64,000 nt of DNA from Ylistrum balloti (Eukaryota), in contig NW_026782276.1 in the NCBI RefSeq assembly GCF_031769215.1, forward strand, positions 1-64,000. Reading direction: 5' to 3'. The notes beneath the pieces are model-generated. The model was not told where the DNA came from. It saw nothing but the letters and a program-made list of their open reading frames with translations, and did no database searches. A program made the translations under genes and the position numbers. Below, in pieces: positions 30,790-61,092 of this stretch (positions within the stretch are counted from its first letter, which is position 1; each line of letters starts with the position of its first letter).

Positions 30790-31440
30790 TACAACTTGGT
30801 GTAATACATTTACAACATTCATGGCTTCAATATCGAATTGATATCACACCTTAGTTTAATACATTTACAACATTCGTGTCTCAATATCGAATTAATACAC
30901 CGTACATTGATGTAATACATTTACAACATTCGTGTCTCAATATCGAATTAATACCGTACATTGATGTAATACATTTACAACATTCGTGTCTCAATATCGA
31001 ATTAATACCGCACATTGATGTAATACATTTACAACATTCGTGTCTCAATATCGAATTAATACCGTACATTGATGTAATACATTTACAACATTCGTGTCTC
31101 AATATCGAATTAATACCGCACATTGATGTAATACATTTACAACATTCGTGTCTCAATATCGAATTAATACTGTACATTGATGTAATACATTTACAACGTT
31201 CGTGTCTCAATATCGAATTAATACCGTACATTGATGTAATACATTAACAACATTCGTGCCTCAATATCGAATTAATACCGTACATTGTTGTAATACATTT
31301 ACAGCATTTGTGCCCTAAATATCGAATTAATACCACACATTGGCGTGATACATTTACAGCATTCGTGCCCTAAATATCGAATTAATACCACACATTGGCG
31401 TGATACATTTACAGTATTCGTGATCTCGATATCGAATTTA
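30790..31440. repeat. 54-bp minisatellite, about 12 units
   Basis: Unit AATATCGAATTAATACCGTACATTGATGTAATACATTTACAACATTCGTGTCTC. Central units are near-identical and edge units are diverged. Confidence 0.95.
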
Positions 31441-32469: not shown

Positions 32470-35400
32470 CTAACACAAACCGAACGATGTAGAAGACAGA
32501 GCATATATTTTGTTGATATCAAGATGTATCGGATCATGTCTGAATACCATCAACAGAGGCATTCCCTGTCCCATCATTCCATACCTCGCTGCTAATTTGG
32601 TTGCTGCGTTATTTTCTAATGGACTCGTGAAACCAACAACGCAACCCTTTGGAACTTCACTTGCAATTTTTAAAAATACTTCGTTAGCCACATACTCATT
32701 GTCCGCATAAAGTGGAGCGATTTGGAGACATGTGTCCTGGAACCTCAGAACTGCATATCCACAAAGTTTGCCATCTTTTACCGCGACATAGGTCTTTAAT
32801 TGGGGATTAGAAATCCAATTAATGATGTAAGCTTTCCGTGGAATTTTGTGAATCTGAGTGTCATACTGTATCACGGCTGATAATGTGGAGTGTTTTAAGG
32901 GATGGATGAGAACTTGTTCTTCGTGTTTATGCCTGGGATTTAGATCGACATGTTGTTCAATTCGCCCGCTATTGTACCAGGTGGTGTATGCTTGCGTCGT
33001 GTTACTTTTCGTAATCATGTTAACCTTTTCCTGCATGTGTGGCCAGATAAATCCAGCATAATTTCTGTCCGGAAATCGATTTATTGTCTTTGCAAGCTTA
33101 TATCCAACACTTGAAGATCTGTAATCTTTGTGGACAATCCATAACCCTGATACATAGAGATTATCCGTGAAGGACAATGATGAATAACATCCTGAAAACA
33201 ACACAAGTGATTGTAGCAAAGATATTGAATATTCTTTACAGATTTTATACACAAAGGAATGCTAAGCAATGTCAAAAATTTGTTTTTTTCAGACGCAGGT
33301 GTTAACATACATACCCCCAAATAAAGAATATCTATCCCTTTTTTCAATTAACATAAAAAACAGGACTATGTTGTTTCCGCTGAAGTCAGAAGGACGACGG
33401 TATTTCAAAGTTTTGTTTTTCTTTCATAGTAAAAAATAAAGAAGAAAATTTACAAAATAGTGAAAAATGATAGAAACGATCCGATACTGTATTTAGAAAT
33501 CGCTTAGAAAACGTCAACAATCAACAAAAGACAACACCAGAAATTAGTTTTTTATATCAAGTGGTGTCACGTGATATGCGCAATTGATGTTCCGAATGTC
33601 TCAGATAACTCTATATGTGGTTACCTGTTGCTAAATATCACTGTTGTTATATATCATATATTTGAAATGCAAATCTTTTTCATTAATATTTTTTTAAAAT
33701 CATCAATATTTACCAAAACAATTGTTTGCAGATAGCAGCTGTGAAATGTATTTCTGGGCCTAGGAGACATGTGATTTAGCCATCAAGTTAATAAGGGTGT
33801 AATGCCCTGAATAGATCGGCTTAGCAGGGAGAAAAACGCGAGAAATATATATTGCGCTCCACTTATGTTTTATTTTTGTTACATTGCTTATCACTTTTTC
33901 CAATCTTTGAGATAGCAAGAGGTAGACACTGCTTGTGGACTGTTTGCAGTTCCCGAGCTTTTTGCGTAAGCTTCATGCAACGTTTCAATTTATTAGAAAA
34001 GTGGCACAGTATAGGTTATACATATGTACTCTATAATTATCTGAAAACTCTTCCAGAAAGAGATATGGTAAGACAACTATCACCATTTTAGGCGCATTTT
34101 CTATCTAGAAAATCCAAAAGAGGATTGGAGTAAGTCAATTGACTTATTTGGATTGAGTTAGATTTACATATCGCTTTCTCCTTCGGAACACTTGGTCTTA
34201 TTCTCATTGTACGTTTTCAGTAGTTTCCGTGTAATCTTTCTTTAGTCTATATTTTCCTCACTTTTATTTGAATTTGAACTTAGATTATGATTATGTTGTC
34301 TTGTATCAGGAGACTTTCATTTTCTCTTCAATTTTTTATCTGTATTCACTGATTAAATCTGTGATATATTAACAATGCATTTAAGTACAAAAGAAACAGA
34401 TTTCATGAAACAACTCTTGGGGTAAAGCTTGAAATCTACTGACATTTATATTCCAATGTGCAGATGAGAGATTGCACAACGTTACACGATGCGATGTATA
34501 TATATTTAGGTTGGTCACTTGTAGATCTATCGGATCCACACTGTTTAGTTACACATGAATAGCCTTAGTGTACGGTAATCATTAAATGGTCTTCTCTTCA
34601 TGTCACATTAATGAATCATAGAAAATATCAAACCGTCAGAGAAAAACCTTTATTTTCATTACCTCTGTATTACTTTCATTTTTCATATATTTTGTCAACA
34701 AAAAATATATGCTGAGGTAAAATTGAAGTGTTGTGTTTTTACACGGGCGACCCAGTCGGTAGAGTGTTGGGACCTGTCACGTATATACCCGTATAGGTAA
34801 ACTTTTTGTTGCCCGAGACACCACTACTCGCCTCTTTCGACTGTGTGAAACTATATACGATAAGACTTATTAATGCAGGTCCAGTGTTACTTCAAAAAGG
34901 CAGAACTAAAATTATTTTATAACCACTGATCAGTTTCCATATTCATGTGATCGCTATTTAGTAATAACTTCACGAATTTTCGTTTCAAGTTTTAATTCGT
35001 AAAATTAGCCAACTGTTTTTACCAAACCGCGCGAAATGTGCGATGCTATCGCACAGTTGTGCGCATGATACTCCATAGCGCGAGTGTGCGCACGATGTAT
35101 GCAAGAAGGTTTTGTTGCGTTACGTGTTACCACAACTGTATCGATGATGAACCACGAATGTGTAAAATTTAGTGTAGATTGACTTTTTTATTTATGTATT
35201 ATTTATTTTGTTTCATTTTTGGGGTTCCCGATTATGTGGGACGCAAACATTATACTAATGATATAGAATACGTTTGCTCATTAGATAAAGAAGAGTACAT
35301 CAATCCAAAAATGATAAACCATTCGATAAGACATTTGTACACAATGTTACTGACAGTTACCGTTAACCTCAAACAGGGAGAATGCTGAGGTTCCGTCCTT

Positions 35401-36287
35401 TGGACGACTTACAGCAGAAATAAGAAATGATAATTTAAACAAAATTGATATCAAATTAGAGAAAATAAGGCCCTGGTGTAGTACACACAAACATGTGATT
35501 ATCTAACTTTAAAAGACGTCAATTTCAATGTCTCCACTAGGATACGAACACGTGACACTTGATTTACTTGTCTAAATCTATAAATAGTATCTTTCTAACC
35601 GAGTGGCATTTTCCGGTTAGTATTTTACCAATGCTACATATTCCTCCTGTAGGAAGTAACTCGTCTTGGAGGCAGGGTTACAGCGATGTTAGTGAAAATA
35701 ACGCTGTGTATATCATTCATTCTAGAGGTCATTATTACAACGGCGTCGCTAGGATTCGAACCCGGAACATCTGGTATTTAAGTCTGACGCTCAAAAGATC
35801 AAGTTGAAGGTCTCTCTAACCAAGCGGTAAGTACAATTTTACAAAAGTTACAATTACTTGTAAACTTTGTGTTTGTCATATTTGTAAAGTCATCAGAATA
35901 AATTCAAACTTACCAATGATTTCTCTGTCTACCGTCTCAGCCACAACGAAATCCCGTGGATTAGTTTTAAATGCGCAGTCTAAGTATGCTTTCTCCATAA
36001 TCCACTTTTCCTCATCAAGTAGTTGATTAACTTTCGTTAAATCTCGCTTGTTCATTGAACGAATCCTGAAGTGGACATTTGATAAAGCGCGTGTCCTGTA
36101 ATAATGAAAAAAACCCGTTGCAAACATAATATCATTCATATCCCAATAAATGCGATGGAATAGTTGATATAAATAGATAAAATGATTGCATATGTTTGTG
36201 TAACAAAGCAACTTACTGCCTAACGATTCTTCGTATTGTCTCTGCAGATGCAATGGTCAGGATTTGCTGGTTTAATATCGGTATCAT
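32470..36287 (-). CDS. GNAT copy A, a YitH/holothin-acyltransferase-like two-domain N-acyltransferase of 324 aa. Exons 36287-36217, 36095-35914, 33191-32470.
   Basis: Intact spliced ORF (71+182+722 nt). FRIRSM..DL..V..L..EKW, FVVAE...EIIG, GLWIV..YRSSSVG, YDxxxH..PR..YI..W, GYAVLR, IAPLYAD, NxxA..LA..YG. Confidence 0.85.
35480..35830 (-). mobile_element. Dimeric tRNA-derived SINE-like element in GNAT-A intron 2; related copies at ~38870-39160 (+) and ~47280-47620 (+)
   Basis: Two 'GTTCG(A/T)ATCCTAG' B-box units about 200 bp apart in each copy. Confidence 0.55.
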
Positions 36288-38378
36288 TTTGCCGTCAGAT
36301 GACGCAAAGGTATGCTCTGCCTTGCCGGATTGTACAAAGTATACATCCGGGTAAAATCGTTCCTGTATATTTTAAATGCACCCGTATTGAAGCAGTCTAT
36401 GCAGTTAGGTGGACACGTTATTTAAATACAGCTACCCCTTTTCGGTGAGGTGTAATAACGCATTGCTAAATTCTAAGGTCCTTATTTTCTATATACATGT
36501 ATATGTAGAAAGCATTTATCTAAATTCCATTTTAATTATTCTCAGGTATGTCGTTTAAAATAAAACTCAACACCTTTGCACTTCTTTGAGGTAAACTGAG
36601 ACTTTTCTGTCACCGACATTCTAATTTGTAAGACACATGAGCAATATAATCTTTCACGTTCTTTGTAACTCTGTAGGTATTGTCGAACAAAATTGTTTTT
36701 GTAAGTTCGGGACATCAATCTGCCCACATCTGATATTTATCAATGTCTTGTTTACTCTTCTGAAGGCTACGATTGTAACTAAAGTCAACAAGAATTAAAA
36801 AGCATTGACACGGATGTCTGCATCTTTTTGTTTGTTTTTGTTTCTTTGTTTGGTAACACAGGGACGCATTTGAAAAATGTCGCTGCATAATCATAGTAAT
36901 TGTTTTGAGTATATAGTAAATATATAGTGGTGTTATAATACAAATGTGATTTCAACATGACTATTCTTTTTTTATCGTGATTTTTTAAATTTTTTAGTAA
37001 GAATTTTGATGATAAAGTCTTCAAAACCACAAGGGTCAAATGTCCCATGATCACTTTTCTAACAACTACTTGAACATGGGTTATGATACTTGTGTAGTAT
37101 CTTACTGAAGAATTTGAATTTAAACCTTGTTTTAACGAACCAGCAGTTTATGTAAGCTTCAAAACAGAAGACCGATTCAGGCCCATTCGGTCTGTAGATG
37201 TTAATCTTTCTCCCTCAACCGGTTTCATCGAACTTTTCTAACCGCATTTGTCTGTTTAATGCCCCGAAGGATACAGCAACGCAGGTAAAAACAGTCGTCG
37301 AAAATGATGCAGGCACATGTTTTCTAATGCGCACCTGTTTCACCCTCTGCTTCATTCCAGATACCAAACATTCAAGGTGGTATAGAAATCAGGTTCAAGG
37401 CGTATTCTTTTCACTTCTTGGTCATTCATAGTAGAGACGTAGTGATCAGAAACATAAGCGTGCCTTACATACGGAATTTCGTTGATATATATAAGATACT
37501 ACATCACAATTCGGTTCCAATGACTGTAAATGAGTCTCAAACAAACACCCACACATTCGGATCACTTTTGCTTTGTATTACCTCCCTTCAAGAGCATGCA
37601 TTTTTATGACTAGCTCTTCAGCTGATCGTCACTCATCAAAGCTTCTTCGGCCAACGTTTGATCGAATTGGCCTAATTTCCATTCCGCTGACAGAAAACTC
37701 AATCGCACGACCAGAAACGTTATGTGTGGGATTATACAACTGAAATAACCATATTCATAAACCATCACATCTATTTAAAATTTTATATAATTTTGTGGAG
37801 CACCATCAAGGCATAGTAGATATACTATGTATAGAGATGTACACAAGTAATTGTTTTATATAACATTTTTACTCGAAGAGAACATGTTTTTATCTAATTC
37901 TAGAGAAAATAACTAACGAGAGTGAAATGAATATCATATATAACAATCATGTGTGACACGTTTCTACCACGTGTTTCCAGTATATTGTTAGCTCTTTAGT
38001 TCAAAGTTAATTAAGGACGATTAAACATATGAGAACAACTCTTACAAGGACTTCTTTCAATTCACACTAAAATCCAATAGTCCAATATGCGTTAGCATGC
38101 TATTTTATTTCTGAAGTTACAAACATATCTTGTTAACATATCTGTACCACGCAATTAAATACCATTCTTACGAAACCCATTGTCATCTTGAAACATTGTG
38201 ATGTTTGTAGCTGTAAATAGGCAACGTGTCCATTTAACGACATTGACTGCTACAACTCAGGTGTACTTCATATATATACATAACGACCTTACCTGGAGAC
38301 ATACATCGTACGATCTAGAAAGCCAAAACATACCTTAGTGTTTGTTGTATGATCACAACTGCATCACCTGACTGCAAA

Positions 38379-40358
38379 ATGATGGCGATACTAAAACAAC
38401 AAATCCTGACCATTGCATCTGCACGAGTAATACTAAAAATTGAAAGGCAGTAAGTTGATTATTTCACACACGCATGCAACCATTTTATCTATTAATCATT
38501 ACGTTTGAATTTCATTGTCTAATAGATAATACTATGTTTGTTTTAAGTTGTTTTCATTTTTACAGGACACGCGCTTTTTCAAATGTCCACTTCAGGATTC
38601 GTTCAATGAAAGAGCAAGATTTAACGAGAGTTAATCAATTACTTAATGACGAAAAGTGGATTATGGAAAAAGCATACTTAGACTGCGCATTTAAAACTAA
38701 TCCACGGGATTTCGTTGTGGCTGAGACGGTAGACAGAGAAATCATTGGTAAGTTTGAATTTTATCCTGATGACTTTACAAATATGGGAGAAAAATCAGCT
38801 GATCAGTAATTGGAACGCTGGTGAAATGCTAGTCGCTAATTACCGCACAGTTTGAATAATCTTATCTTTATTTTGATTGGATAAGTGTAAGACTAGTAAA
38901 CAAGAGGCTCCGGGTTCGAATCCTAGCGGAGACATTGGAATAATGACCTCAGGAATAGTACTTCGCTTTACCTAAACTAGCATGGCTTTAACCACTGGAA
39001 GCTCGAGGACGAGTCATTTTTTGGCAGAAGGGGTATTAAATCTGAAATAATACTAGCCACTAAATGCTACTCGGCTAGAAAGATGATTTCTTCAGCTCGA
39101 TCGACTGAGCGTTAGATAAGTATACCAAGGGTCATGGATTCGAAACCTAGGTGGCCGGAGTTCAATAAGGCGACAAACCGGTATATACCTTAATGATATC
39201 TTTCGAGCATATAATGTATGCTTTGTAGTAGAAAACTATCTAATTTTGACTTTACTTTAATTTGTGCTTGTTTGGCAATTTTCATCTTTGTATTTGCCTT
39301 TTTTATGATTTGAAGGAAGAATCTACGAAGATATAAATGTCATAATGTTCAATGAACAAGTAAAGATTTTGTCGACGCCGTCTAAATTCTCGGAAGAAAA
39401 GTTTTGAAAATATCAAAATAATTTGCTTCGAAAAATAATAAGGAAATTGGCACTGTCAAGTTCAGATTGAAAATAAATTTAAAACAAAGAGGAAAATATT
39501 CTTTAATTTGGGTAATTGTAATATAAATCTGGTTCTTAAAAATAATCAGCTTTAAGGCAACGCTATGCATTCTTCTATGTATGATATTTTAAAGAGCATT
39601 TAAATACATTGATACAATCCCTTGTGTTATTTACAGGATTTCATGGACTACTTTCCCTCACGGATAAACTCGACGTGTTAGGATTATGGTTTGTCCAGAA
39701 GGAGTACAGATCTTCTGGTGTTGGATGTAAATTTGTCGAGAGAATAAACCAGGTGTCAAACAGAAATTTTGGTACATTTATTTGGCCACACATGCAGGAA
39801 AAGGTTAACATGATAACGAAAAGCAACACGACGCAAGCATACACCACCTGGTACAATAGCGGGCGAATTGAACAACATGTCGATCTAAATCCCTGGCACC
39901 AGCCTGAAGAACAAGTTCTTATCCGTCCCTTAAAACACTCCACATTATCAGCCGTGATACAGTATGACACTCAGATTCACAAAGTTCCACGAAAAGCTTA
40001 CATCATTAATTGGATTTCTAATCCCCAATCAAAGACCTATGTTGCGGTAAAAGATGGCAAACTTTGTGGATATGCAGTTCTGAGGTTCCAGGACACATGT
40101 CTCCAAATCGCTCCACTTTATGCGAACAATGAGTATGTGGCTAACAAATTATTTTCAAAAATTGCAAGTGAAGTCCCTAAGGGTTGCGTTGTTGGTTTTA
40201 CGAGTCCATTAGACAATAATGCAGCAACCAAATTAGCAGCTAGGTATGGAATGATGGGACAGGGAATGCCTCTGTTGATGGTATTCAGACATGATCCGAT
40301 ACATCTTGATATAAAAAAAATATATGCTCTATCTTCTACATCGTTCGGTTTGTGTTAG
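38379..40358 (+). CDS. GNAT copy B, 324 aa. Exons 38379-38449, 38566-38747, 39637-40358.
   Basis: Intact, with the same exon sizes and phases as copy A and canonical splice sites. Motif A reads YRSSGVG. Confidence 0.87.
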
Positions 40359-42393
40359 AAGAAATTTCAGAAACTCTTTGCTTTCTGTCATTATTTGATA
40401 AAAGGAATTGTCAGGCATCGAACTTAAAAATGCGTTTTTTGTTACTGTAAGGATGACAGAGTGCAATAAGTGTCCATGTAATTCCTCTGGAGTGTTATCC
40501 GGTGTTGATGTAAATGCAACATATTTCCTGGTTAGGTCACTGGTCACTATTGACGAAATGGCTCACAGATCGAATCGTTTGAGGTGGGAACTGGCACATT
40601 GTTACCGGTTTTAAGAAACAAGTGCATTTTCGTTTTTTTTTGTAAATAATGTATAGTGTTTTACTGTGCTTCTGCCGATTATGTCATTAATACTTTAATT
40701 TTGTGGAGCGTTACGAATATGAAAATTCAAAGCCAGATCCATATCTAACATGTTATCAAGTTACAAATTTAGCGAGCTCTGAGACAATATGTATATCATG
40801 GTGTTTTGAAATATGTAAAAGTCGTTGTACATCTGTTTCAGCTAATACATCTAAACTCCTTGTAATGTCTTTAAACTCCTTGGTAAATTTTATATGTTGC
40901 CCCTGCCTAACTACCTCTTGAGTTCATATTTTTCTTTTCCCTCTCCAATTTGGTTTCTCTCACCAGAAATTTGGTAAGATTTTTGTAGACTTGACCTAAT
41001 TCTTGTTATGAGTTGCCTAATAAAATAAGATGTTTTTTTTTCTTTAGATGTATCAATCTGGTATTCTTTTCCAAACTGAAAAAAAGATCGGAAACTGATA
41101 TGAAAATACAAAGTAATCTAAAACAGCAATGCTGGAATTGTAGCTCTATTTGAGGAATTTACAATATACTACAAGGGTAAAACAAAAAAGTATGCGATAA
41201 CAAAAACATAAATTCGAGTTAGGTAGACCTCCTTAAGATCTCAAAACAAAGACACCAATATCATACTATTTTTACGTTTTTACAATTCAGGTCATTGTAT
41301 CTCATCGCATTTCCTCAAATGTGAAAACTACACATAAAACTGAGGTTTTTATTTTGGAAATGGAAAAGAAATAGAAATGTAAACTCTAACTCTGAATTCG
41401 ATATTGAGGCCACGAATGCTGTAAATGTTTTACGCCAACGTGCGGTATTTATTTGATATTGAGACAAGAATATTGTGAAAGTATAACAACAAGGTGCGAT
41501 ATTAATGCCATATTAAGACACGAATATTGTAATTGTATAACAACAAGGTGCGATATTAATGTCATATTGAGACCACGAATGTCGTAAATGTATAACACCA
41601 AGGTGCGGTATTAATTCGATACTGAGACACGAATATTGTAAATGTATAACGCCATGGTGGGATATCAATTCGATATTGAGGCTACAAATGTTGTAAATGT
41701 TTAACACCAAGGTATGCATTAATTCAATATAGAGAAAAGATTGTTGTCAATGTATTAAACCGAGGTGTGATATCAATTCGATATTGAAGCCATGAATGTT
41801 GTAAATGTATAACACCAAGGTGTAAGATCATAACAGAATGAAGAATTAACTGCCTTTTCAGGTATATGAAATACGTCTGATATAACGTTTTGTTTTAAAC
41901 ATACATGGTTTGTTTTAGTACGTAAATAATGTAGTGATTTTATGTGGGACAAACATATTATGAATAACGATTGTGTATGAATGTAAATAAAAGGCAAATA
42001 AAAATTATTCAGGGTTCTTAAAGTTTACAAACACATGCATCTGTGTCTTAAATATGAATTCCTCGCCTTTCTTAATACAGATATCATGATTACAATGTAA
42101 AAAAATTTAAAAAGGATTGTTTATCAAATTTCTGAAATCTAGTTCAAGTACACTATGATTATTACAACATGAATGAATAGTGTTAACAAATTCCATTCTT
42201 ATATTGACAGATGACGTTTTATGTTTTAATGTTTACTGATGATGTTACGTACCCAGTTGCGACACATAAACATCCGCCTGAAGAAGCCGAAGAGAACAGA
42301 AATGCCTTGCTAACAGTCTCGTGTTTTTTCCTTACAAAATCATATTCAGTTTACAAACAAACGATAGCATTTGGTTTTTTTTTAAAATATAGC
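39780..42393 (+). repeat. Right outer arm of the GNAT palindrome, inverted match to ~30218-33050
   Basis: Continuous reverse-complement homology of the exon-3 tail, the 3' flank, the minisatellite and the 'gttgcaactgggtacgtaacatcatcag' block. Confidence 0.9.
41395..41830. repeat. Diverged inverted counterpart of the 54-bp minisatellite
   Basis: Recurrent 'attcgatattgag..cacgaat.ttgtaaatgtat' units. Confidence 0.8.
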
Positions 42394-42405
42394 TAGATAA
42401 ATAAA

Positions 42406-42506
42406 GACAGGGAATGCCTCTTTTGATGGTATTCACACATGATCCAATACATCTTGATATCAACAAAATATATGCACTGTCTTCTACATCGTTCGGTTTG
42501 TTATAA
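42406..42506 (+). pseudogene. GNAT remnant D: last ~33 codons plus a 3' UTR-like tail to ~42690
   Basis: QGMPLLMVFTHDPIHLDINKIYALSSTSFGLL*. Confidence 0.85.
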
Positions 42507-43569
42507 GCAATATAAGTAGAAATATCATATAGGAAACTCTTCGCTTTCTGTCATTGATGTAAAAGGAACTGTCCGATATCGAATTCAGACATTTGCATTT
42601 TGTTACTAAAAAATGACAGAGGGCATTTCAGTTAGCATCTATGTATTTCCTGTTGAGTATCATCCGGTGTTGATGCAGGTGCAAAAATGTTTCTTAGGTG
42701 TCAAGGTCAAGGTCACAATTACTATTTGTAGAAGTATTTCAAAAATTTCACTTCATTTTGCATAATCCTCTGAAACGATGAATACTTACTATCATCAAAA
42801 CTGCTCAAACATTGACCTATTTGAGATGGGAGCTGACACATTGGTTCCATTTGCGAGAAACAAGTAAATGTGTGTAAAATTCCTATAATAATTGAATAAT
42901 TTAAAGAACGCTATGGTTCGGTTTGTGACTTTGGGACTGCTTGAAAGTATCCAATATACAGTGGTTTCTTGTCTTTCTGCCTGTTTCTTATCGCTTTTAT
43001 CTAAAACAAACTGATCATTTATGAATTAGGAACGAAAATAACAATAACATATTTTGGTATTGACAATGAACGACTCACCTGAAATTTTACTTTTGACAAA
43101 TGGTATTTAGTCTATTTGATTTGCATGCAGAGATATGATCAAATGATAACTGGAGTTCATCCTTATTGTATACACTGTAAGAACGTTTTAAGTTTCGACG
43201 ATGAAGCAGAAGACGCTCAACATTCCGAAGCACCTTGTCTTTTTCAGTGGTTTTCGTGTAAATCTTTGTTTTGTTCATACGTGCCTTCTGTGGGTATTAT
43301 TTTATCTCCTTTTGTCATTCTCTATTATGACTTATTGATATATCTGTGTTGTTAACATACATCTCATCTTTCATGCATATCATAACAATTGGCAGGTATC
43401 CAGAACTGTCAATACAGTTACAGTTTGAATCATATCACATATGTGATATCAGCTTTTATTCATTTTGCAAACGTTTGCGAAACAATTTTTTTAATACATA
43501 CTAATCGTGCAAGGGGTCTTATTGTGAGAGAAAACCGGATAACCCGTGAAAACCAAAATGGTCGTGCAG

Positions 43570-43655
43570 ATAACCCCTTACTTACGTCCGTAATAGAAAT
43601 CGAACCCCGGATGGTGAGGTGAAAGGGAGTGCGTTACCAAAGCGCCACCCGATCA
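43570..43655 (-). mobile_element. tRNA-derived SINE head; copies at ~45020-45110 and ~52480-52560
   Basis: GGTGGCGCTTTGGTAACGCACTCCCTTTCACC...GGGTTCGATTT...GGACGTAAG. Confidence 0.55.
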
Positions 43656-43789
43656 CCCAACATTTCACATAAGTACATAATGACCTATATATCAGACATT
43701 TTAAGGTCATTAGAAATAGGACATGCTCCTCTTTATATCATCGACCATTTGATCTGTAAGGTGTGTCAAAAACATGTGACCAATATAAT

Positions 43790-44023
43790 CTGTCATGCAA
43801 GTAAATGACATACTTGCGAAACCCAGTATCATATTGAAGCATTGCATGATGTTTGCTGCTACAGCACAGGTGTACTTTATATATATACATAACGATCTTA
43901 CCTGGATATATACTTTGTACGATTTGAAAGTCAAATCATACCTTAGTGTCTGTTGTATATCACAACTGCATCACGTGACGGCAAAATCATGGCAATACTA
44001 ATTAAACAAATCCTGAACATTGC
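43790..44023 (+). pseudogene. GNAT remnant E: promoter plus truncated exon 1
   Basis: MAILIKQILNIA, then a jump into a second copy of the 42990 module. Confidence 0.75.
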
Positions 44024-45479
44024 TTATCGCTTTTATCTAAAACAAGCTGATCAGTTTTGAAATAGGAACGAAGAAAATAATAACTCATTTTTGTCAAGAT
44101 AATAAATGACTCACTTGAAATTTTCCTTTTGACAGATAATATTTAGTCCATATGATTTGTATACAGAGATATGATTAAATGGTTTCTAGAGTTCATCTTA
44201 TTATGCAATGTATGATCATTTTACTTTTAGATGATGAAGCATAAGACGCCCAACATTCCGAAACACCTTGTCTTTTTCAGTGATTTTCGTGTAAATCTTT
44301 GTTTTGTTCATATGCATTTTCAGTTGGTATTCTTTTATCTCCTTTTGTCATATTCTATTATGACTTTTTTCTGCTTGTGTTTGGGTATAGGTTCAAAGTA
44401 TTTTCCCCTGTTACATTAAGCAGAAAATGGGGTTGTACCTATCGACTGCGTTGCAAATCTGCTGAGAATCAGTCACCCGACATTACATTGAGTTTCAGTA
44501 AATATGTTCAATTTGAAATTGTGAAAGAAATAAAGCAACAATACTTACAATACTTAGAGCTGATTATTCTGATCAAAAAGGGTTTGATATCAGCATTTCA
44601 TCATAATAATCTTCATTAAGACTGAAAATGTTCAAAGTAAGGTAAAATGTCAAAAAAATAAAGACTTACACGAAGACTCTCGGAAAATGTACAAGTTTTT
44701 TCGTTGAAACCCGTCAAGTCAATCTCGATCAATATTCAGATACAATATTCTGCTGACACATTGATATCTCTGTCGGATGTCATCAAATTGCAAATTAAAT
44801 TCAAAGATATTCACCTTTTTCTGTTTATTTATCATTTCAATGAGTTTCGAAAACATAACACAAGTTGTGTAATTAATGTAATTTCATCTTTCATGTGTAG
44901 CATAACAATTGTCTATTTGCAGGTATCCTTAACTGTAAATAAAGTTACATCTTGAATATTTAGAAACTGTCACTTAGAGTGACAACAAATATTTCGCATA
45001 GGTGATATCAACATGGTAGGGTAGATGACCTCTTACTTACGTCCATTAAGGGAGTCGAACACCAGGTGGAGAGGTGAAAGGCGAGTGCGTTACCAAAGCA
45101 TCTTCCGACCAACCAACATTTCACATAAGTACATAATGACCTATATATGAGACACTTTTAAGGTCATTAGAAAAAGGCGTGCTCTTTTTTATCATCGCCC
45201 ATTTGATATGTGAGGTGTGTCAAAAAAATGTGAGCAATATAATCTGTCATGAAAGTAAATAATATTCTTACGAAACCCAGTATCATATTAAAACATTGCG
45301 TGATGCTTGTAGCTGTACATAGGCAACGTGTCCATCCAACGACATTGACTGCTACAACACAGGTGCACTTTATATATATACATAACGACCTTACCTGGAT
45401 ATATATTTTGTACGATCTAGAAAGCCAAAACATACCTTAGTGTCTGTTGTATATTACAATTGCATCACCTGACGGCAAA

Positions 45480-48400
45480 ATGATGGCGATACTAAAACAA
45501 CAAATCCTTAACATTGCATCTGCACGAGTAATACGAAAAATTGATTATTTCACACACGCATGCATCCACTTTTTCTATTAATCATTACTTTTGAATTTCT
45601 TTTTCAAATAGATAATACTATGTTTGTTTTAAGTTGTTTTCATTTTTACAGGACACGCGCTTTTTCAAATGTCCACTTCAGGATTCGTTCAATGAAAGAG
45701 CAGGATTTAACGAGAGTTAATCATTTACTTGATGACAAAAAGTGGATTATGGAGAAAGCATACTTAGACTGTGCATTTAAAACTAATCCACGGGATTTCG
45801 ATGTGGCTGAGACGGTAGACAGAGAAATAATTGGTAAGCACTAATTGACCACTATAAATATGAAATAGTTCTTTTGGTTTGCTACATCATTTGGTAATGG
45901 TAATTAATTTTTAATTCAGCAATTTGATTCCAAACTTCGGACTTAGGGACAGAACCCGAAAAGGGAAAAATAATACAATATTTTGCTTCAAAACGCTACT
46001 CCTTTTTTAATGTTTGAATTTGGTTTAAAACAACATTGATGGTGGGAAATTATTTCTTAAATTCAGAAATGTTATTCGAACCCTAGGGACTTGGGGATGG
46101 GGCCCAAAAATGGGAAAATTGTCAAAATATTGCTTCAAAACACTACTACTCCTTTTTAATTCTTGAATGGATTTCAACAAAATTAATTTTGAAACGTCAT
46201 CGAGCAAGTTTTTTTTTCTCAATGCAGAAATTTGATTCGACCTCTAGGGATGGGTCCCAAAAGCGGAAATTATTCAATATTTTGCTTCAAAACACCACCT
46301 CTTTTTAATGATTGCATTGATTCAAACAAATTTGGCCCGAAACAGCATTGAGAGTAGAGAAGGATTTCTGATCTTCAGAAAGAAGTTTTAACCTGTAAGG
46401 AAGCTAGTCGATATTTTTCTTCAAAATGCTGCTCTTTCTTAATTTTGGAATGGTTTTCTACCTAATTCAGACACAAACATCACTAGGAATGGGAGATCAT
46501 TTCTTAAATTCCGAAAGTTGATTCGACTCCTGGTAAATAGGAATGACCTTGATTTGCTTGAAAGGTCACAGGGATCAAATATGTTAAAATCTTTAAATGA
46601 CTTCTCAACAACCAAAACGCAATGAATGATCCTAGACCTGTAGCCTGCTAGGATGAAAGGTTACCAACTTTGTTAATATGAATGACATTAACCCTCTTTC
46701 AAGGTCACGGGTATGCAATGTATCAAAATGACTTCTTCTCAGTAACTAATAGATAAAGGGTCTCAATATTGGGTCTATAGCATGTTTTTCAACATGCAAT
46801 ACGTCCGGAGTAATGGCAATTAAGTAGTGCATGTATAAAGAATATGATTGCATAACATGTCTCGATGAACAAACAATGTCTTCTATGTAAGCTGTAGAGT
46901 AATTGAGCAATTTCTTTTAGGCCTTTTCTGCCTCTTTCATAAATAGGTTTTTATAGACAGATGACTGTTAAGGCCCATGGGCCTGTTGTTAGCAAATATG
47001 TCAAAGAAAAAAAATAAATGAAGCCGTGCTCCTGAATTCATCAAAGACAAGTCATGCCTGATTTTTTTAGGTATATATGATCTATTTCTAAAAAGCTTGG
47101 AATAATCAGTTTCAAAAGCATTGCACAACACTAATCTATCTTCAAAATTGGTAAAGAACACAAGTTGTATTGATAAAATCGCTTGTATTGTTTCCAGGAT
47201 TTCGTTGTCCCTTTTGCCTCACGGGTAATCTAGTATTAGGATTATGGCTTGTCCATAGCAAAATAGTATTCGCACGTTACCGCTAAGTTAGAAAGACTTT
47301 CAGCTTGATAGTTTGAGCGTTAAAGTAGAAAACCAGATGTTCCAGGTTCGAATCCTAGCGTAGCCGTTGTAATTATGACCTCTAGAATGAAACATATACG
47401 CAGCGCTACTTTCACTAACATCGCTGTAGTCCTACCTCGAAGACGAGTTACTTCCTGGAGGAGGAGTATGTAGCACTGGTAAAATACTAACCGGAAAATG
47501 CCGCTCTGTTAGAAAGATACTATTTATAGATTTAGACAAGTTAATCAAGTGCCACGTGTTCGAATCCTAGTGGAGGCACTGAAATAAATAATGACGTCTT
47601 TTAAAGTTAGATAATCACAAGTTGGTGTTCAATTTTTTTTTATATTATTATTTCTTATTTCTGCCGTAAATCTACAAGTGACCAACCTAAATATTCACGG
47701 CTTAATTAGGGAATACTCGAAGTGGTATTCTTATATGTTTAAAAAATAAATAAACCCTATCCCACACTTATTTAAAAGTCATTTCGGAATGTATGTCAAC
47801 CACGTAAGAATCGCACATGTGTGCGATAAAACCGCACAACGCGCTCACGAATGTGCGACAACTCATTTCGTCCAATTTCCCTATCGTGCGCACATCGGAT
47901 CGTGTAACGTTGTGCAGTCCCTCATCTGTAAATTGGAATATACATGTCAGTAGATATGGATGTCATGACCTCATATGTATAAAAACACATGCCATATGTC
48001 AAATTTCAATCTGTAACCCACATGTTGTTTCTCGAAATCTGTTTCTTTTGTACTTCAATGCATCCTTAATATATCACAGATTTAATCAGTGAATACAGAT
48101 CAAAGCTTTGAAGAGAAAATGAAAGTCTCCTAATACAAGAAAATACCTATAAGTCAACATCATCATAATCCAAATTCAAATTCAAATAAAAGTGAGGAAA
48201 ATATAGATTAAAGAAAAATTACACGGAAACTACTGAAAACGTACAAAGAGAATATGACCAAGTGTTCCGGAGGAGAAAGCGATATGTAAATCTAACTCAA
48301 TCCAAATAAGTCAATTGACTCACTCCAATCCTCTTTTGGATTTTCTAGACAGAAAATGCGCCTAAAATGGTGATAGTTGTCTTACCATATCTCCTTCTGG

Positions 48401-49956
48401 AAGAGTTTTCAGATAATTATAGAGTACATATGTATAACCTATACTGTACAAATTTTCTAATGAATTGAAACGTTGCATGAAGCTTACGCAAAAAGCTCGG
48501 AAACTGCAAACAGTCCACCAGCAGTGTCTATCACTTGCTATCTCAAAGATTAAAAAAAAAAATAGCATTGTAACAGAATTAAACATAAGCCGAACGTAAT
48601 ATATGTTTCTCCCGTTTTACCCCATGCTAAGCCGTTCTATTCAGGGCACTACACCCTTATTAACTGGATGGCTAAATTACATGTCTCCTACGCCCATAAA
48701 TACATTTCACAACAACTATCTAGAAAAATTGTGTTTTGGTAAATATTGATGATTTAAAAAATGAAATTTGCATTTCAAATTTATTATATAAAACGACACT
48801 GATATTTAGCAACAGGGAACCACATATAGAGTTAACTGTGATATTTCTGATATCACGTGACACAACGTGATATAAATACTAATAAATAGTGTTGTGTTTT
48901 GTTGATTGTTAACATTGTCTAAGCGATTTCTAAATACAGTATCGGATCGTTTCTATCATTTTTCACTATTTTGTAATTTTTCTTCTTTATTTTTCACTAT
49001 GAAAGAAAAACAAAACTATGACATACCGTCGTCCTTCTGACTTCAGCGGAAACAAAATAGGCCTGTTTTTATGTTAATTAAAAAAAGAGATAGATACTCT
49101 TTATTTGGGGGTATGTATATTAACATCTGCGTCTGAAAAAAAACAACTATTGAACATTGCTTAGTATTCATCTGTGTATAAAATCTGTATAGAATATTCA
49201 ATTTCATTGCTACAATCACTTGTGTTGTTTTCAGGATGTTATTCATCATTGTCCTTCACGGATAATCTCTATGTATCAGGGTTATGGATTGTCCACAAAG
49301 ATTACAGATCTTCAAGTGTTGGATATAAGCTTGCAAAGACAATAAATCGATTTCCGGACAGAAATTATGCTGGATTTATCTGGCCACACATGCAGGACAA
49401 GATTAACATGATTACGAAAAGCAACACGACGCAAGCATACACCACCTGGTACAATAGCGGGCGGATTGAACAACATGTCGATCTAAATCCCAGGCATAAA
49501 CACGAAGAACAAGTTCTCATCCATCCCTTAAAACACTCCACATTGTCAGCTGTGATACAGTATGACACTCAGATTCACAAAGTTCCACGAAAAGCTTACA
49601 TCATTAATTGGATTTCTAATCCCCAATCAAAGACCTATGTTGCGGTAAAAGATGGCAAACTTTGTGGATATGCAGTTCTGAGGTTCCAGGACACATGCCT
49701 CCAAATCGCTCCACTTTATGCGAACAATGAGTATGTAGCTAACGAAGTATTTTTAAAAATTGCAAGTGAAGTTCCTAAGGGTTGCGTTGTTGGTTTCACG
49801 AGTCCATTAGAAAATAACGCAGCAACCAAATTAGCAGCGAGGTATGGAATGATGGGACAAGGAATGCCTCTGTTGATGGTATTCAGACACGATCCGATAC
49901 ATCTTGATATCAACAAAATATATGCTCTATCTTCTACATCGTTTGGTTTGTGTTAA
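45480..49956 (+). CDS. GNAT copy C. Exon 1 starts at 45480 with its donor deleted; exon 2 45652-45833; exon 3 49235-49956. Functional status uncertain.
   Basis: Exons 2 and 3 are open and AG/GT-bounded. A 15-bp deletion relative to copy B removes GAAAGGCAGTAAGTT. Confidence 0.7.
45920..47000 (-). mobile_element. Helentron-associated non-autonomous (HINE-like) element in GNAT-C intron 2
   Basis: Internal tandem units anchored by 'cttcaaaac.ctactcc' and a terminal palindrome AGGCCCATGGGCCT at ~46971. Absent from the A and B introns. Confidence 0.6.
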
Positions 49957-51027: not shown

Positions 51028-52100
51028 CACTAAACAACTAAAGAAAGGTAACACTACTTTATTCTGTGATTAATTCATTAACCCCTTCATAAATCCTTAC
51101 CAATCATGTACGAATAAAGTAATTGATCAATTCTGATAAAACTGCAGTCATGGTTCATTATAAAACTTTGCGTTCAGTTGATTTTATTTGACTATAAAGG
51201 ACGTTGGGGTCAATTTCAAAGGTAACAACATTAGTAACGGGCATGGCCACCGTTTGCGAAGTGAACGGCATTGCAGCGTCGTGGAACTCGTAAACCGGCG
51301 GATAATTCGAGGAGAGATGTTGTTTCATTCAGCGATCAAGGCTTGGGCCAGCTCCTGCAAGTTTGACGTTCTCTCACACGTCGCCCAAGAACATCCCAGA
51401 CATGCTCAATCGGTGACAAATCAGGTGATTTAGATGGCCAATCTAACACCTGTACGTTATTCTGCTGCAAGAAAGTTCCGCTGACGCGACTGGTGTGCAC
51501 TGGTGCGTAATCCTGTTCAAAAATGGCGCCAACTCCATGGCGTCTTAAGAATGGCAGAACCACCGGTCTTAAAATTTCGTCCAGATATCGAATGCCGGTT
51601 AAATTGCCATTTAACACAACAAGCCTGGTACGAGTCCCCCCACAAATACCACCCCAAACCATTACACTTCCGCCGCCAAAGCGGTCCCGTTCTGCGACGC
51701 AGCAGTTCGCAAAACGCTCCCCTCGTCGCCTCCACACTCTCCGCCTTCCGTCATCGTGTTGCACACAAAACCTGGGCTCATCTGAAAACAGAATACTGTT
51801 CCATTGGCGTAAGGCCCAACGACGGTGAACACGAGTCAGGTTACGCCGATTATTGCGGTGACGTCGCAACAAATTGTGTCCAGTGTAGTAACGCCGCGCT
51901 TTCAATTGGTAGGCCCTCAACCTGTTACGGACTGTCTGGGGAGACATACAAACACGCCCAAACAATATCCTTGTAGTCTCTACTGCGGTTACGAATCGAT
52001 TGCGCACGTGTATCAATCGTATACGACGGTCATCCCTGGCGGTCGTTTTACGGGGTCGGCCGCTTCGGGGACGATCGGATGTTGACCCAGTTTGCAGTTC
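51028..52100 (-). mobile_element. 5'-truncated Tc1-like DD34E transposon
   Basis: DRPRSGRPR, FSDE, VMVWGGI, QDYAP, SPDLSPIEHVW, NGGHARY*. One terminus remains (TA|CACTAAACAACTAAAGAAAGG); C-terminal frameshifts. Confidence 0.9.
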
Positions 52101-53297
52101 GACGATGAAACAGAAGACGCTCAACATTCCGAAACACCTTGTCTTTTTCAGTGGTTTTCGTGTAAATCTTTGTTTTGTTTATACGTGCCTTCAGTGGGTA
52201 TTCTTTTATCTCCTTTTGTCATTCTCTATAATGACTTAATGATATATCTGTGTTGTTAACATGCATTTCATCTTTCATGTATATCATAACAATTGTCTAT
52301 TGGCAGATTTCCATAACTGTCAATACAGTAACAGCTTGAATCATTTCACATATGTGATATCAATTTTTATTCATTTTGAAACGTTTGTGAAACAATTTAT
52401 TTTAACTTTTACTAATAGTGCAAGGGGTGTTATTGTGAAAGAAAAACCGGAGAACCCATGAAAACCAACATGGCCGTGCAGATAATCCCTTGTTTACGTC
52501 CGTAATGGAAATCGAACCCCGGTTAGTGAGGTGAAAGGCGAATGCGTTACTACCACCCAACATTTCTCATTACTTCATAATGACCTATATATCAGACACT
52601 TTTAAAGTCGTTAGACATAGGACATGCGATTTTATTTATAATCGACCCCCTGATCTGTGAGGTGTGTCAAAGCATGTGAGCAATATAATTTGCCTCGCTC
52701 TATATGAAACAAATGAAATTTCAACATAACTATGCGAATTCATCTATTCTTTTTCATAGGAATGTGTTAATGTTGAAAGAATTCCGATGATGTAGTCGTC
52801 AAATAGATTTACTATAATAGCAATTTTATCAAAGCTGCTCCATATTTCAAGACACAAAAAAGACAATACAGTTTTCATATTTTCAAAAATTATGATTCAT
52901 ATGAGTCAATGCTAGCTCAATTACTTTTGACATCTTCAAAAGCACAAGAATAAAATGTGCCGACATTTTTTACCAATAACTACTTGGCCATGGCTCATGA
53001 TATTTATGTAGTAGCATGCTAGAGAAATTGAATTTCAACCTTGTTTTAACGAACCAACAGTTTATGTAACCTTCACAACAGGCGGGCGATTCAGACCAAT
53101 TCGGCCTCTTTGTTTTATTTAACTATCAACCAACAAACATTTGCCGCCAAGATTTTAAAAAATTTATTTTAAGTACATCCCCGAGAACATATCAACCTCA
53201 TTAAATATTAATCAAAAACATTAAGACTCTAACCATATCGCCTTGAAAAAGTCTATCAGAAGAAAATTCATCAGCTACGGAACAGTTAACATTATTG

Positions 53298-58100: not shown

Positions 58101-61092
58101 TGGTGTATTGTAAAATTTATTTGTGTTGTGGGAGTGGAATCAAGAACTTCGTTGAAATTATATTTTTATACATTCAGATTTTGAAGTCTTTCGGTGTATA
58201 TATTTACTCTTTGGTTGCTCACTTTGAATCAATATGACCTACAAAATTTGGAATGGGACTTTGTTCGAGTCAGATTTCTGGCATTGTCTTGCTTGTTTTT
58301 CCCCTTTACCTGCACCATGGATGTTCCCGTATAGTTTGTGTATTTTAGGTTTCAAACTATTATTGTTCAAGACGGATACTCTGGCTTGTTCAGTTATCTG
58401 GCTGTATGCTATTTATGTTGTAAAATAGTGATTGGTGTGTCATTGTACAAACAACTAAAACATGATCCTCTGATAGTGGTTGTTGCTTATTTGTGGTGTT
58501 TGCACTTGTATTGTAGTTTATTTGTGTATATATTCATGTCGTCATTATTACAATATTCTGTACCGTTGGAACTGTGTAAGCTGCAGCCCTCACGTGCTAT
58601 CCAATTGTACCTTCTAGTAGGACACTTGGGCAATATGGCAGTATGTTGATAGGCTAGGAAAGCTTGTTGGAACTGTGTAAGCTGCAGCCCTCACGTGCTA
58701 CAAAACCTTCTAGTAGGACACTTGAACAATAAGCTGAGAGGATAGTAAAACTTGTTGAAATGTGTAAGCTGTATGTACTATAAAATATTCTGACACGAAA
58801 TACGATGAAATAAGACATGATATGCACGCACATTCATAAAATAAGAGAAGGCAGATGAAAAGGAAGGTTTGATCGCAGCAGCTTTCCTTGGGACAGATAG
58901 TAAAGACATCCGTTGGCAAAATCAGATATTGAGAGAAGCGATGGAGTTCTTGGCACTGTGCACTGTATTCTCTGTATTCTCTTAATCATCTTCAAAAAAA
59001 GTAACACATTTATCTTGTCAGTAACATCACATTGAACAGCATACTGATATTCAAGCACTAGTAAAATCGACTTTTCTGCTTCCCACAGTTCCAATATCAT
59101 GCATTCCCATATTGACATCCGCGGTGCCCAGATTCGGAAACATTATTGTTGGGAATGGGTTAAACAGAGTCCTAGTTTTAGAAAATCAAATGTTTTAAAT
59201 TGAGAATGTGTGTATGCAGCATATATTGTAACTCAGATTTGCGAAAACGTATAAATGCTCGTGCATTTTACTGGGTTTAGTGGCATGGTATGTCACTCAT
59301 TCATTTTAGAATTGGATATGATCGGTTTTGCATCACACCATAATATTGTATTTTTACAGCTATATGTTGTTTATGATACATTGTTCTCTTAGCAAACGGA
59401 GAGGAATGTTGTGAAACGGCATTATAGTTTACGTATAGGTCCGAGGATTCCGGGAAGTTAACACCCTGAAGGCCTCGAATCTCGTCTATACCCATGTTAT
59501 ACCCTCAGTTATCGTGAGACCACAGAGCAATTAAGACAGAAACTTACACCACACAACTTTACAACCATACCATAGTCGGTTATTCTCGTGGGGATGATAT
59601 TTGCACTATTTCGCGGTAAACTAACGTGATCGCGGAAACTTATTCCATAAAATAATGACCCATGAGTGTATCAAATGTCCGTTTACACACAGATCGTGAG
59701 ATTTAACTTCATTTAAATATTATTCGTTTTTTGTTTTCGATGCTAACCATTATTATACATAGTCATCTTTGCTGAGTGTATTGTATGTTACTGTTAGGTC
59801 CCTTCTTTCTACCTTTCCTGCTTTTTTGTACTTAAAAGTGGCCCATCCGATGTATTGGTGTATCAGACGTAATTATTGCTGTGCAATTCATTACTCAAAT
59901 GAATTAACGTTAAACGCATTCTAAAAGCTGCTGAACATCCAGCTTACTATTATTGTTGTGTTTGTACGTGTATATCCCTCTGTGTCATTATCGACGTCCA
60001 CAATAGCTAAATACACACACACACACACACACACACACAAATGTATAAAGTTTATCATAATTAATTTAGATTTTTGTCTTCTTATCTTTTTCTTTTGGTA
60101 TAATCATGAGTTATAAGTAAGGCCATTTTTCAGACCTTAACACCATTTTCTCAGCTAGACATGTTAACATAAAGAAATATGTAACTCCCGAACGTTTATT
60201 TGTATATAAGTTAGCTTCAAATAACAATTTCATATAAAAGGTAAAGTATTTCCAATCGCTAAGGTGGATAAACCTATCAAAACTGCGTTGTTTTTGCAGT
60301 AACCTAGATTTCCACGGAAAGAATAAGCACCATTTGCAATTTTAACTCATTTTGTTCAAACAAGGTCACAGCATTTGCCGATATCAATATTCCCAGATGT
60401 CTTTGTGATACCTACACAATAAGTGTATGGAACAACAGATCTAGCAGAGATCATGAAAAAAGGGGGAAATACTGCTTAACTTTTTAAAAATTGTCATGAA
60501 AAAGATGACTTTATGTAAAATCGTTAATATAATGATGATAATATAAGAGCATGCAAATAGACAAATTAAAACTGAAATAAGAAAAAGATTGGGGACATAA
60601 ATTAAGTGGGTGGAGAAACGCTTTGATAGATTCCATCTTACTTTTAACCCTATTTGATAATATATATCTGCCATTTATCAAGAGACAACGGCTTTACCAT
60701 GTAGTTGGTTGTTTTCAGGAACGAAGATCTCGTTTGCTGCGGAGAGTAAAGTGAAAATGGGGGCCAAGAGGCACAGCTCACGTTTGGCATTTCATTCACT
60801 CTACTGGAACGATGGAAATAGCTTCGATCGATCGAATGGAAAATTTTCTTGTCGTGAGCCTGGAGTTTACCTGTTTACAATGAGTATAGCTCCAACTGTA
60901 ACAGAGAAGACCGTGTTTATGCTCTTTCGTAACGATCAAGTTTGGCATAGTATAACGAGTACAAATAACACTGGCTCTGTCACAGGGATCGCTCGATTGG
61001 CTCAGAGAGATACGGTCTCTGTTAGGGTACAAGGAAATCACCATAATATCGCGCCAATCTGCTATTTTGAAGGCGTTCTACTTTATCAATAA
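55109..61092 (+). CDS. Secreted coiled-coil + collagen + C1q-domain protein of ~368 aa. Exons 55109-55323, 56254-56363, 56788-56835, 56971/56974-57333, 60719-61092.
   Basis: Signal peptide AYAVVFIMVLAVTFA, heptad-rich segment, 38 uninterrupted Gly-X-Y triplets, and gC1q motifs ISFAA, F....WNDGNSFD..NGKF.C..PGVYLF, L...D.V.V, FEG.LL. Splice phases 2,1,1,1 are consistent. Confidence 0.88.
58566..58780. repeat. ~100-bp tandem repeat, about 2.3 copies
   Basis: 'gttggaactgtgtaagctgcagccctcacgtgcta...ccttctagtaggacacttg' is repeated. Confidence 0.8.

What the first reader, a model, noticed from the sequence alone, without database searches (positions are those of the whole stretch)
32470..49956. 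Expanding cluster of YitH/holothin-acyltransferase-like GNAT genes
Three near-full copies and two remnants lie within 18 kb. The tandem-GNAT architecture matches the bacterial YitH/HlmA type (HlmA acylates holothin in holomycin biosynthesis). I know of no characterised function for such proteins in molluscs. Spliceosomal introns show these are host genes. Rapid birth-and-death suggests a small-molecule acylation or detoxification system under ecological pressure, possibly from an old horizontal transfer (inference).
Basis: partly seen in the sequence, partly recalled or inferred. Interest (0 to 1): 0.7.

Follow-up and report, generated by a model that had tools for sequence, protein, structure and literature searches.

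The report
Scallop cluster of mitochondrial-type acyltransferases
A scallop carries a small, reshuffling cluster of already-annotated two-domain acyltransferase genes from an old family shared by many invertebrates; the proteins are likely imported into mitochondria and likely put acyl groups on a still unknown small amine, and nothing ties them specifically to bacterial antibiotic chemistry.

Summary
Three intron-containing GNAT genes and three relics (one more than reported) lie in 32.5-50 kb. A and B are intact three-exon genes; C has lost its first splice donor. RefSeq already lists all three as 'holothin acyltransferase-like' (Ylistrum balloti). They belong to the PF00583+PF18014 family (fold of PDB 3DDD, Z 27).

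The name misleads. An HlmA-type enzyme is only 20% identical, and a mollusc+HlmA clade is rejected (p-AU 4e-6). The genes nest in an animal clade with hemichordates, spiders, a brachiopod and a nemertean, so any transfer from bacteria predates molluscs.

All dN/dS values are below 1. Detoxification under ecological pressure is untested. Verdict: an ordinary birth-and-death cluster in an uncharacterised family, with one good testable lead.

The parts
36217..36287 (-). Gene A exon 1: start codon and presequence-like leader
   Evidence: the model equals RefSeq P0002 / XP_060074740.1
35914..36095 (-). Gene A exon 2 (182 nt): start of the N-terminal GNAT domain
32470..33191 (-). Gene A exon 3 (722 nt): motif A variant RSSSVG, then PF18014 domain, stop
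38379..38449 (+). Gene B exon 1: start codon and presequence-like leader; head to head with A
   Evidence: RefSeq P0001 / XP_060074741.1 starts at the second Met
38566..38747 (+). Gene B exon 2 (182 nt)
39637..40358 (+). Gene B exon 3 (722 nt): full motif A RSSGVG; the first ~150 nt are the block that differs from A and C
42408..42503 (+). Relic: last 32 codons of exon 3, followed by 3' flank like that of A, B and C
43989..44023 (+). Relic: start of exon 1, inside a copy (43554-44023) of the region upstream of C
45480..45581 (+). Gene C exon 1 lacking 15 nt with the splice donor; reading on from its ATG meets a stop after 33 codons
45652..45833 (+). Gene C exon 2 (closer to B, 174 of 182 nt, than to A, 169 of 182)
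47198..47255 (+). Relic inside C's intron 2: splice acceptor and start of a B-type exon 3
49235..49956 (+). Gene C exon 3 (closer to A, 703 of 722 nt, than to B, 651 of 722); open frame

Best explanation
This is a tandem and inverted cluster of intron-containing scallop genes for two-domain GNAT proteins (two intact, one with a broken first splice site, three relics) that are likely imported into mitochondria and likely transfer an acyl group from an acyl-CoA to a small amine. Shown: gene structure, family, fold, place in an animal clade, mosaic copies and purifying selection. Inferred: exon 1 is a cleavable presequence (cut near R-A-F/L-S); the N-terminal domain binds acyl-CoA and catalyses, while the C-terminal PF18014 domain lacks the P-loop and would close the acceptor pocket; the job would be conjugating matrix acyl-CoAs to amines or amino acids, as glycine N-acyltransferase does. 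Copies likely arise by local duplication and unequal exchange, and gene conversion likely homogenises most of the gene but spares residues 84-133, so A and B would differ in substrate or in activity.
For: Family and fold: PF18014+PF00583; AlphaFold model pLDDT 91.6; best match 3DDD at Z 27.2, rmsd 2.6 over 263 residues, next row 18.9; Foldseek E 2e-16. Leader: A and B pass an Arg-rich, acid-poor rule, as do 19 of 22 named animal homologues with an extension of 20 or more residues, against 454 of 5861 internal windows. Sites such as RAFS, RALS, RTYS, RAYT, RSLS occur, and the features match the description of presequences in PMC7723863 (passages). The leader has its own exon in A, B and 3 copies on contig C1066. 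Chemistry: the relatives with a tested function that I found (HlmA, ActA; XrdE by gene swap) N-acylate a small amine (PMC3826145 and bioRxiv 10.1101/2024.01.12.575338, passages). Constraint: dN/dS 0.39 (A-B), 0.21 (A-C), 0.30 (B-C); one sister subtype is 81-87% identical across four scallop genera. Mosaic: 41 of 68 A/B differences in exon 3 fall in 150 nt, reached by 0 of 20000 shuffles; dS is 0.57 there and 0.13 in the rest. That block is strands 82-90 and 95-103, the P-loop, helix 112-121 and strand 127-132 of the model. An independent sequencing run has one contig over 35981-38680 that joins the 5' ends of A and B.
Against: No localisation predictor or experiment was run. The leader rule is my own, made after seeing the sequences, and many of the 22 proteins are near kin. 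10 of 32 named animal homologues have no extension as annotated. The acceptor is unknown and a protein substrate is possible. The R/QxxGxG loop is complete in only 2 of 11 scallop-clade proteins (B and one from Pecten) and a motif-B-like pattern in 0 of 11, against 13 of 13 for both in the conserved mollusc clade, so A and C may be weak or inactive. Glycine N-acyltransferase is only a distant fold match (Z 12.2), so it is an analogy and not an orthologue.
Confidence: 0.55

Rival explanations
1. The scallop-only clade has drifted from catalysis: the conserved single gene (contig C339) is the working enzyme, and the cluster encodes weak or inactive ligand-binding or regulatory copies.
For: P-loop complete in 2 of 11 and motif-B-like pattern in 0 of 11 scallop-clade proteins. 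Pfam Acetyltransf_1 scores best on the N-domain of the conserved copy (44 bits) but on the C-domain of A, B and C (28-34 bits).
Against: The first Arg/Gln and last Gly of the loop are kept in 11 of 11. Active GNATs with atypical P-loops exist and motif B is not conserved across the superfamily (PMC4964394, passages). B keeps the full loop. Purifying selection holds.
Confidence: 0.17
2. The cluster is a defence against diet or microbes: it acylates and disarms amine-bearing algal or bacterial compounds such as holothin.
For: Scallop-restricted expansion among named hits; an active-site block kept distinct between paralogues; precedent for an expanded scallop conjugating family, the sulfotransferases, in toxin handling (PMC5700196, passages).
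Against: No special kinship to HlmA; generic bacterial members match the conserved oyster copy at 24-29%, against 20-22% for the HlmA-type protein with two scallop proteins; no dN/dS above 1; paralogue sets on one scaffold also occur in hemichordates. In bacteria, acylating holothin is a step in making the antibiotic.
Confidence: 0.13
3. The genes turn over fast because they serve the germ line (for example sperm mitochondria), or they acetylate mitochondrial proteins instead of small molecules.
For: [quoted passage not shown] Distant tandem GNATs such as VipF and NMT act on proteins (hits; functions recalled).
Against: The link to DUF1248 is a minority Pfam label on one cluster, and no scallop expression data were in reach.
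Confidence: 0.12
4. The cluster is partly an assembly artefact, or the genes came by recent transfer from bacteria.
For: Three copies on another contig (C1066) are 96-99% alike with their flanks and could be over-assembled.
Against: Copies in this window differ by 3-16%; an independent run covers the distinct 5' ends of A and B; intron 2 sits at the same codon in 8 of 8 other paralogues printed; the animal clade has support 100/99.
Confidence: 0.03

Closest known systems
PDB 3DDD (Pyrococcus horikoshii NP_142035.1), PF00583+PF18014 family, often called YitH-like (that label is recalled)
   Same: Same two-domain fold over the whole mature protein (Z 27.2; profile E 6e-25) and the same Pfam pair.
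   Different: 15-16% identity; the scallop proteins add a leader exon and introns; 3DDD is titled 'putative', with no substrate given.
HlmA / HolE / XrdE holothin N-acyltransferases
   Same: Same Pfam architecture: a GNAT in a holomycin-type cluster of Photobacterium arenosum (NRPS, oxidoreductase, thioesterase, acyl-CoA dehydrogenase, globin) has PF00583+PF18014 and aligns end to end with B (E 1e-13).
   Different: 20% identity; separate branch; a joint clade is rejected; no biosynthetic cluster around the scallop genes; no leader of the scallop kind. HlmA itself was not in hand: the Photobacterium gene is assigned by gene context.
Conserved mollusc orthologue group (G000:C339 copy, Argopecten P0015, oyster, mussel, clam, abalone, Aplysia)
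   Same: Sister clade (SH-aLRT 97; 100/100), same intron 2, presequence-like leaders.
   Different: One copy found here, 54-71% identical across mollusc classes, complete motifs (13 of 13); the window's clade is multi-copy with remodelled motifs.
Nematode F36G3.2 / DUF1248-associated and spider 'N-acetyltransferase domain' proteins
   Same: Top look-alike clusters at 0.96-0.97; spider rows sit in the same animal clade.
   Different: No function is known for them either; the one nematode row (Plectus) has a long branch and an unstable place.
Glycine N-acyltransferase (GLYAT) and histidine N-acetyltransferase
   Same: Tandem-GNAT small-molecule N-acyltransferases; that GLYAT is mitochondrial is recalled. 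A working analogy only.
   Different: Z 12.2 and 15.6, 6-8% identity; different families.

Membership tests
PF00583+PF18014 two-domain GNAT (3DDD type) | C-terminal Acetyltransf_18 domain above cut-off | tested here: met
   61-66 bits against a cut-off of 22.7 in A, B and C
PF00583+PF18014 two-domain GNAT (3DDD type) | Two GNAT folds packed as in 3DDD | tested here: met
   Z 27.2, rmsd 2.6, 263 aligned; TM 0.70/0.79
PF00583+PF18014 two-domain GNAT (3DDD type) | R/Q-x-x-G-x-G/A P-loop in the N-terminal domain | tested here: inconclusive
   Complete in B (RSSGVG), one Gly changed to Ser in A and C; atypical loops can be active
Holothin acyltransferase (HlmA/HolE/XrdE orthologues) | Orthology: one clade with HlmA-type proteins | tested here: not met
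   p-AU 3.7e-6 with one HlmA-type row assigned by context, 32-row quick tree; 20% identity
Holothin acyltransferase (HlmA/HolE/XrdE orthologues) | Lies in a dithiolopyrrolone cluster with an NRPS | tested here: not met
   The 15 frames of 130 aa or more in the window include no NRPS-like one; those identified are MFS, C1q, DDE transposase, a gypsy-like element and the GNATs
Holothin acyltransferase (HlmA/HolE/XrdE orthologues) | Acylates holothin with acyl-CoA | not testable with these tools
   needs an enzyme assay
Mitochondrial matrix protein with cleavable presequence | 20-60 residue Arg-rich, acid-poor, amphipathic N-terminus with R-2/R-3 site | tested here: met
   A: net +2, moment 0.86, RALS; B: net +4, 0.79, RAFS; criteria from PMC7723863; home-made rule. 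RefSeq's N-terminus for C fails it (net -3)
Mitochondrial matrix protein with cleavable presequence | Import and cleavage shown | not testable with these tools
   no predictor or experiment available
GLYAT / HisAT families | Sequence or profile membership | tested here: inconclusive
   No such Pfam family is listed for A, B or C at E 0.001; fold matches Z 12.2 and 15.6, far below 3DDD
Recent horizontal transfer into molluscs or scallops | Mollusc genes nest among bacteria, apart from other animals | tested here: not met
   14 of 15 named animal rows form a clade at 100/99; 31 of 33 at SH-aLRT 99; monophyly of all 19 animal rows not rejected, p 0.48

The most novel reading that the evidence does not exclude
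Invertebrates have an overlooked mitochondrial acyl-CoA:amine acyltransferase family of prokaryotic type, and scallops have built from it a copy-number-variable sub-family with a rebuilt CoA loop that handles a new acyl donor or acceptor, swapping the active-site block between paralogues by gene conversion. At the bold end, the family entered early animals ready-targeted from an intracellular Dot/Icm-bearing bacterium, whose homologues carry similar leaders.
Probability: 0.25. Interest if true: 0.65.

Novelty: new member of a known kind. Interest (0 to 1): 0.33.

Why it matters
The database name steers readers toward antibiotic chemistry or gene transfer, and the tree shows that this is annotation carried over from a distant enzyme. 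If the leader is a true presequence, a family present in molluscs, brachiopods, nemerteans, spiders and hemichordates is an unassigned mitochondrial acyltransferase. A and B then form a natural experiment: nearly the same protein with two different active-site blocks, plus a conserved paralogue as control, which makes substrate discovery directly testable. Without that, the cluster is a routine example of birth and death of genes.

Tried and rejected
Expression: no RNA holder was listed for gene B, so nothing is known.

Copy-number hint: in run X1 no long contig covered 41.3-49.8 kb. Its contigs cover A, B as far as exon-3 nt 694, and C's 3' flank from exon-3 nt 665, with a 30-base overlap, and 17 of the 24 listed differences in B's exon 3 are A- or C-type. 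A two-gene haplotype would explain this, but no contig bridges the gap and collapsed paralogues would give the same letters, so it is not counted as evidence.

Positive selection: none seen; the divergent block has dN/dS 0.51 with raised dS.

Single-sequence PDB search gave only GCN5/PCAF at E about 0.5; NCBIfam gave no family above cut-off.

The careful mixture-model tree on 65 rows did not finish in two runs, so its supports are SH-aLRT from the quick tree. The bootstrap tree (42 rows, LG+G4) had not fully settled. The trees use 65, 32 and 42 rows chosen by hand from about 300 sequences held; fragments and most unnamed proteins were left out.

The thiomarinol plasmid was not available, so HolE and HlmA themselves were not compared.

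Animals plus the leader-bearing bacterial clade as one group: neither favoured nor rejected (p-AU 0.16).

Literature: 'holothin acyltransferase-like' 0 papers; holothin + acyltransferase 5 papers, all bacterial by listing; DUF1248 2 papers; F36G3.2 2 papers (one read, table rows only); the scallop/GNAT search listed nothing on this family among 15 of 43; the PF18014/YitH search was swamped by scanning noise; one search was too broad. Subscription papers are not covered. No earlier findings of this scan matched.

Presence in vertebrates, cnidarians or protists was not settled: the last homologue search returned 6 proteins only. No complex prediction was run.
Full report
What is there. The window holds three copies of a three-exon gene and three relics between 32.5 and 50 kb. 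A (minus strand: 36287-36217, 36095-35914, 33191-32470) and B (plus: 38379-38449, 38566-38747, 39637-40358) lie head to head and give open 324-codon frames. C (plus: 45652-45833, 49235-49956) has open exons 2 and 3, but its exon 1 lacks 15 nt that include the donor, and reading on from its ATG stops after 33 codons. All 5 modelled introns are GT-AG. The proteins are on record as Ylistrum balloti 'holothin acyltransferase-like', XP_060074740-742. RefSeq gives C a different first exon, whose sequence I read at about 42.8 kb, within duplicated 3' flank; I take this for a filler (inference). C may be a young pseudogene, or may start at an ATG in intron 1 that is in frame with exon 2.

Copy number. 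The genome search gave 14 matches: 11 open last exons on 5 contigs, two pieces of a stop-ridden relic on a sixth, and the remnant at 42.4 kb. PF18014 finds the same 11. These are lower bounds. An orphan exon 2 lies in the C1066 cluster. Intron 2 falls at the same codon in 8 of 8 other paralogues printed. An independent run has a contig joining the 5' ends of A and B, so these two are not an assembly artefact.

Family and fold. All three carry PF18014 and PF00583 above cut-off. The model of B from a 120-row alignment is confident (pLDDT 91.6) and matches 3DDD far above anything else (Z 27.2, next 18.9). The N-terminal domain has the P-loop position; the C-terminal domain has none, like the inactive central domain of the multi-domain aminoglycoside acetyltransferase described in PMC4964394 (passages; that this is Eis is recalled).

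The name and the transfer idea. I found an HlmA-type gene by context in Photobacterium arenosum, beside an NRPS, oxidoreductase, thioesterase, acyl-CoA dehydrogenase and globin, as in the gene table of PMC3826145 (passages). It is 20% identical to B and 22% to the conserved scallop copy. Homologues occur in scallops, oysters, mussels, clams, a freshwater mussel, abalone, Littorina and Aplysia, and in Lingula, Lineus, spiders, a nematode and three hemichordates. In the trees the window genes sit in a scallop clade (12 rows, SH-aLRT 99), sister to a conserved mollusc clade, inside an animal clade (31 of 33 named animal rows; 14 of 15 at 100/99). One Saccoglossus row lies outside in all three trees, and the Plectus row is unstable. 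Molluscs plus the HlmA-type row are rejected as a clade (p 3.7e-6); all 19 animal rows together are not rejected (p 0.48). So the family was in animals before protostomes and deuterostomes split (inference from the tree). Its deeper source among prokaryotes is open; the trees have no outgroup.

The leader. Exon 1 encodes about 24 residues ahead of the domain, Arg-rich, acid-poor and amphipathic, followed by RAFS (B) or RALS (A). 19 of 22 named animal homologues with an extension pass the same rule, against 7.7% of internal windows and 0 of 27 prokaryote rows; 24 of those 27 were matched parts that may lack their true starts. 10 of the 32 named animal proteins have no extension as annotated. 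The features fit presequences as described in PMC7723863 (passages). Mitochondrial import is an inference, not a result.

The scallop clade. R/QxxGxG is complete in 2 of 11 scallop-clade proteins, 13 of 13 conserved mollusc ones and 73 of 96 others; a motif-B-like pattern of my own is in 0 of 11, 13 of 13 and 53 of 96. The clade is not decaying: one subtype is 81-87% identical across four genera, though the window's subtype is only 57-60% identical to its Pecten relatives. Atypical P-loops occur in active GNATs, so I read this as remodelling, with loss of activity as the main rival. 'Scallop-only' rests on named hits; several unnamed fragments fall in or near the clade.

How the copies evolve. 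C is B-like in exons 1-2 and A-like in exon 3. A and B differ at 68 of 722 exon-3 bases, 41 of them within 150 nt (0 of 20000 shuffles); dS is 0.57 there against 0.13 downstream, and A and C are identical in that block. B's block is the closer to the Pecten relative (32 of 50 residues against 23 of 50), while elsewhere A and B are equally close. This fits gene conversion over most of the gene with an older, protected difference in the active-site core. All dN/dS values are under 1.

Mechanism. Shown: structure, family, fold, ancestry, mosaicism, constraint. Inferred: mitochondrial import, acyl-CoA binding in the N-domain, transfer to a small amine. The last rests on HlmA, ActA and XrdE, which set the acyl chain on holothin, and on analogy with glycine N-acyltransferase (distant fold match; its biology is recalled). 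Rivals are inactive copies, dietary or microbial defence (precedent: scallop sulfotransferases, PMC5700196), and a germ-line or protein-acetylating role (nematode DUF1248 genes, PMC8480184).

Papers. I saw passages only of PMC3826145, PMC3069032, bioRxiv 10.1101/2024.01.12.575338, PMC8480184, PMC5700196, PMC9025465, PMC10576830, PMC4964394, PMC7723863 and PMC8703567 (nothing of use). No supplements were read; expression tables in scallop supplements could bear on the rivals. My searches found no functional study of an animal member; they cover open papers only.

Verdict. Real, already annotated, a new member of a known but uncharacterised kind. The likely mitochondrial leader and the swapped active-site block make it worth one assay. 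Interest 0.33.

Noticed in passing
L125:1381-2403 (G135), L126:1498-2637 (G260); proteins P0068, P0085, P0099, P0191: A bacterial clade of the same family (9 rows, 99/95) in which several members have Arg-rich, presequence-like N-terminal extensions. The three closest genomes are small Gammaproteobacteria with DotI/IcmL (3 of 3), but so are 3 of 5 other hit genomes. They could be host-mitochondria-directed secreted proteins; start codons are unverified.
   Followed up: partly
window 11201-18476: Gypsy-like LTR element on the minus strand, with terminal repeats about 99% alike and gag-, protease-, RT- and integrase-like frames split over four ORFs (domain names from reading the translations).
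   Followed up: no
window 51336-52178 (-): Tc1/mariner-like DDE transposase frame (PF13358), next to another copy (52098-52692) of the region upstream of gene C.
   Followed up: no
window 9377-10141 (-) and 60661-61089 (+): An MFS transporter exon (PF07690) and a C1q-domain exon (PF00386) flank the cluster.
   Followed up: no
window 30790-31440 and 41395-41830: A tandem repeat of about 54 bp lies downstream of A and, inverted, downstream of B, as part of an 84% inverted duplication of about 3 kb.
   Followed up: partly
window 1-1959 and 19213-21440: An inverted duplication of about 2 kb at 86% identity.
   Followed up: no
G000:C1066:1-23000 (L106-L108): A second cluster: four copies of a sister subtype, three of them 96-99% alike with flanks, plus an orphan exon 2. 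Very recent duplication or over-assembly.
   Followed up: partly
L095:7430-11071 (Xenorhabdus sp. TH1 plasmid): A family member that branches with the HlmA-type protein sits beside a long-chain acyl-CoA ligase, a thioester reductase-domain gene and efflux genes: possibly an undescribed small acyl-amide pathway.
   Followed up: no
window intron 1 of A, B and C (36216-36096; 38450-38565; 45545-45651): In all three genes intron 1 holds an ATG in frame with exon 2 with no stop between them, which could give an isoform without the leader.
   Followed up: no
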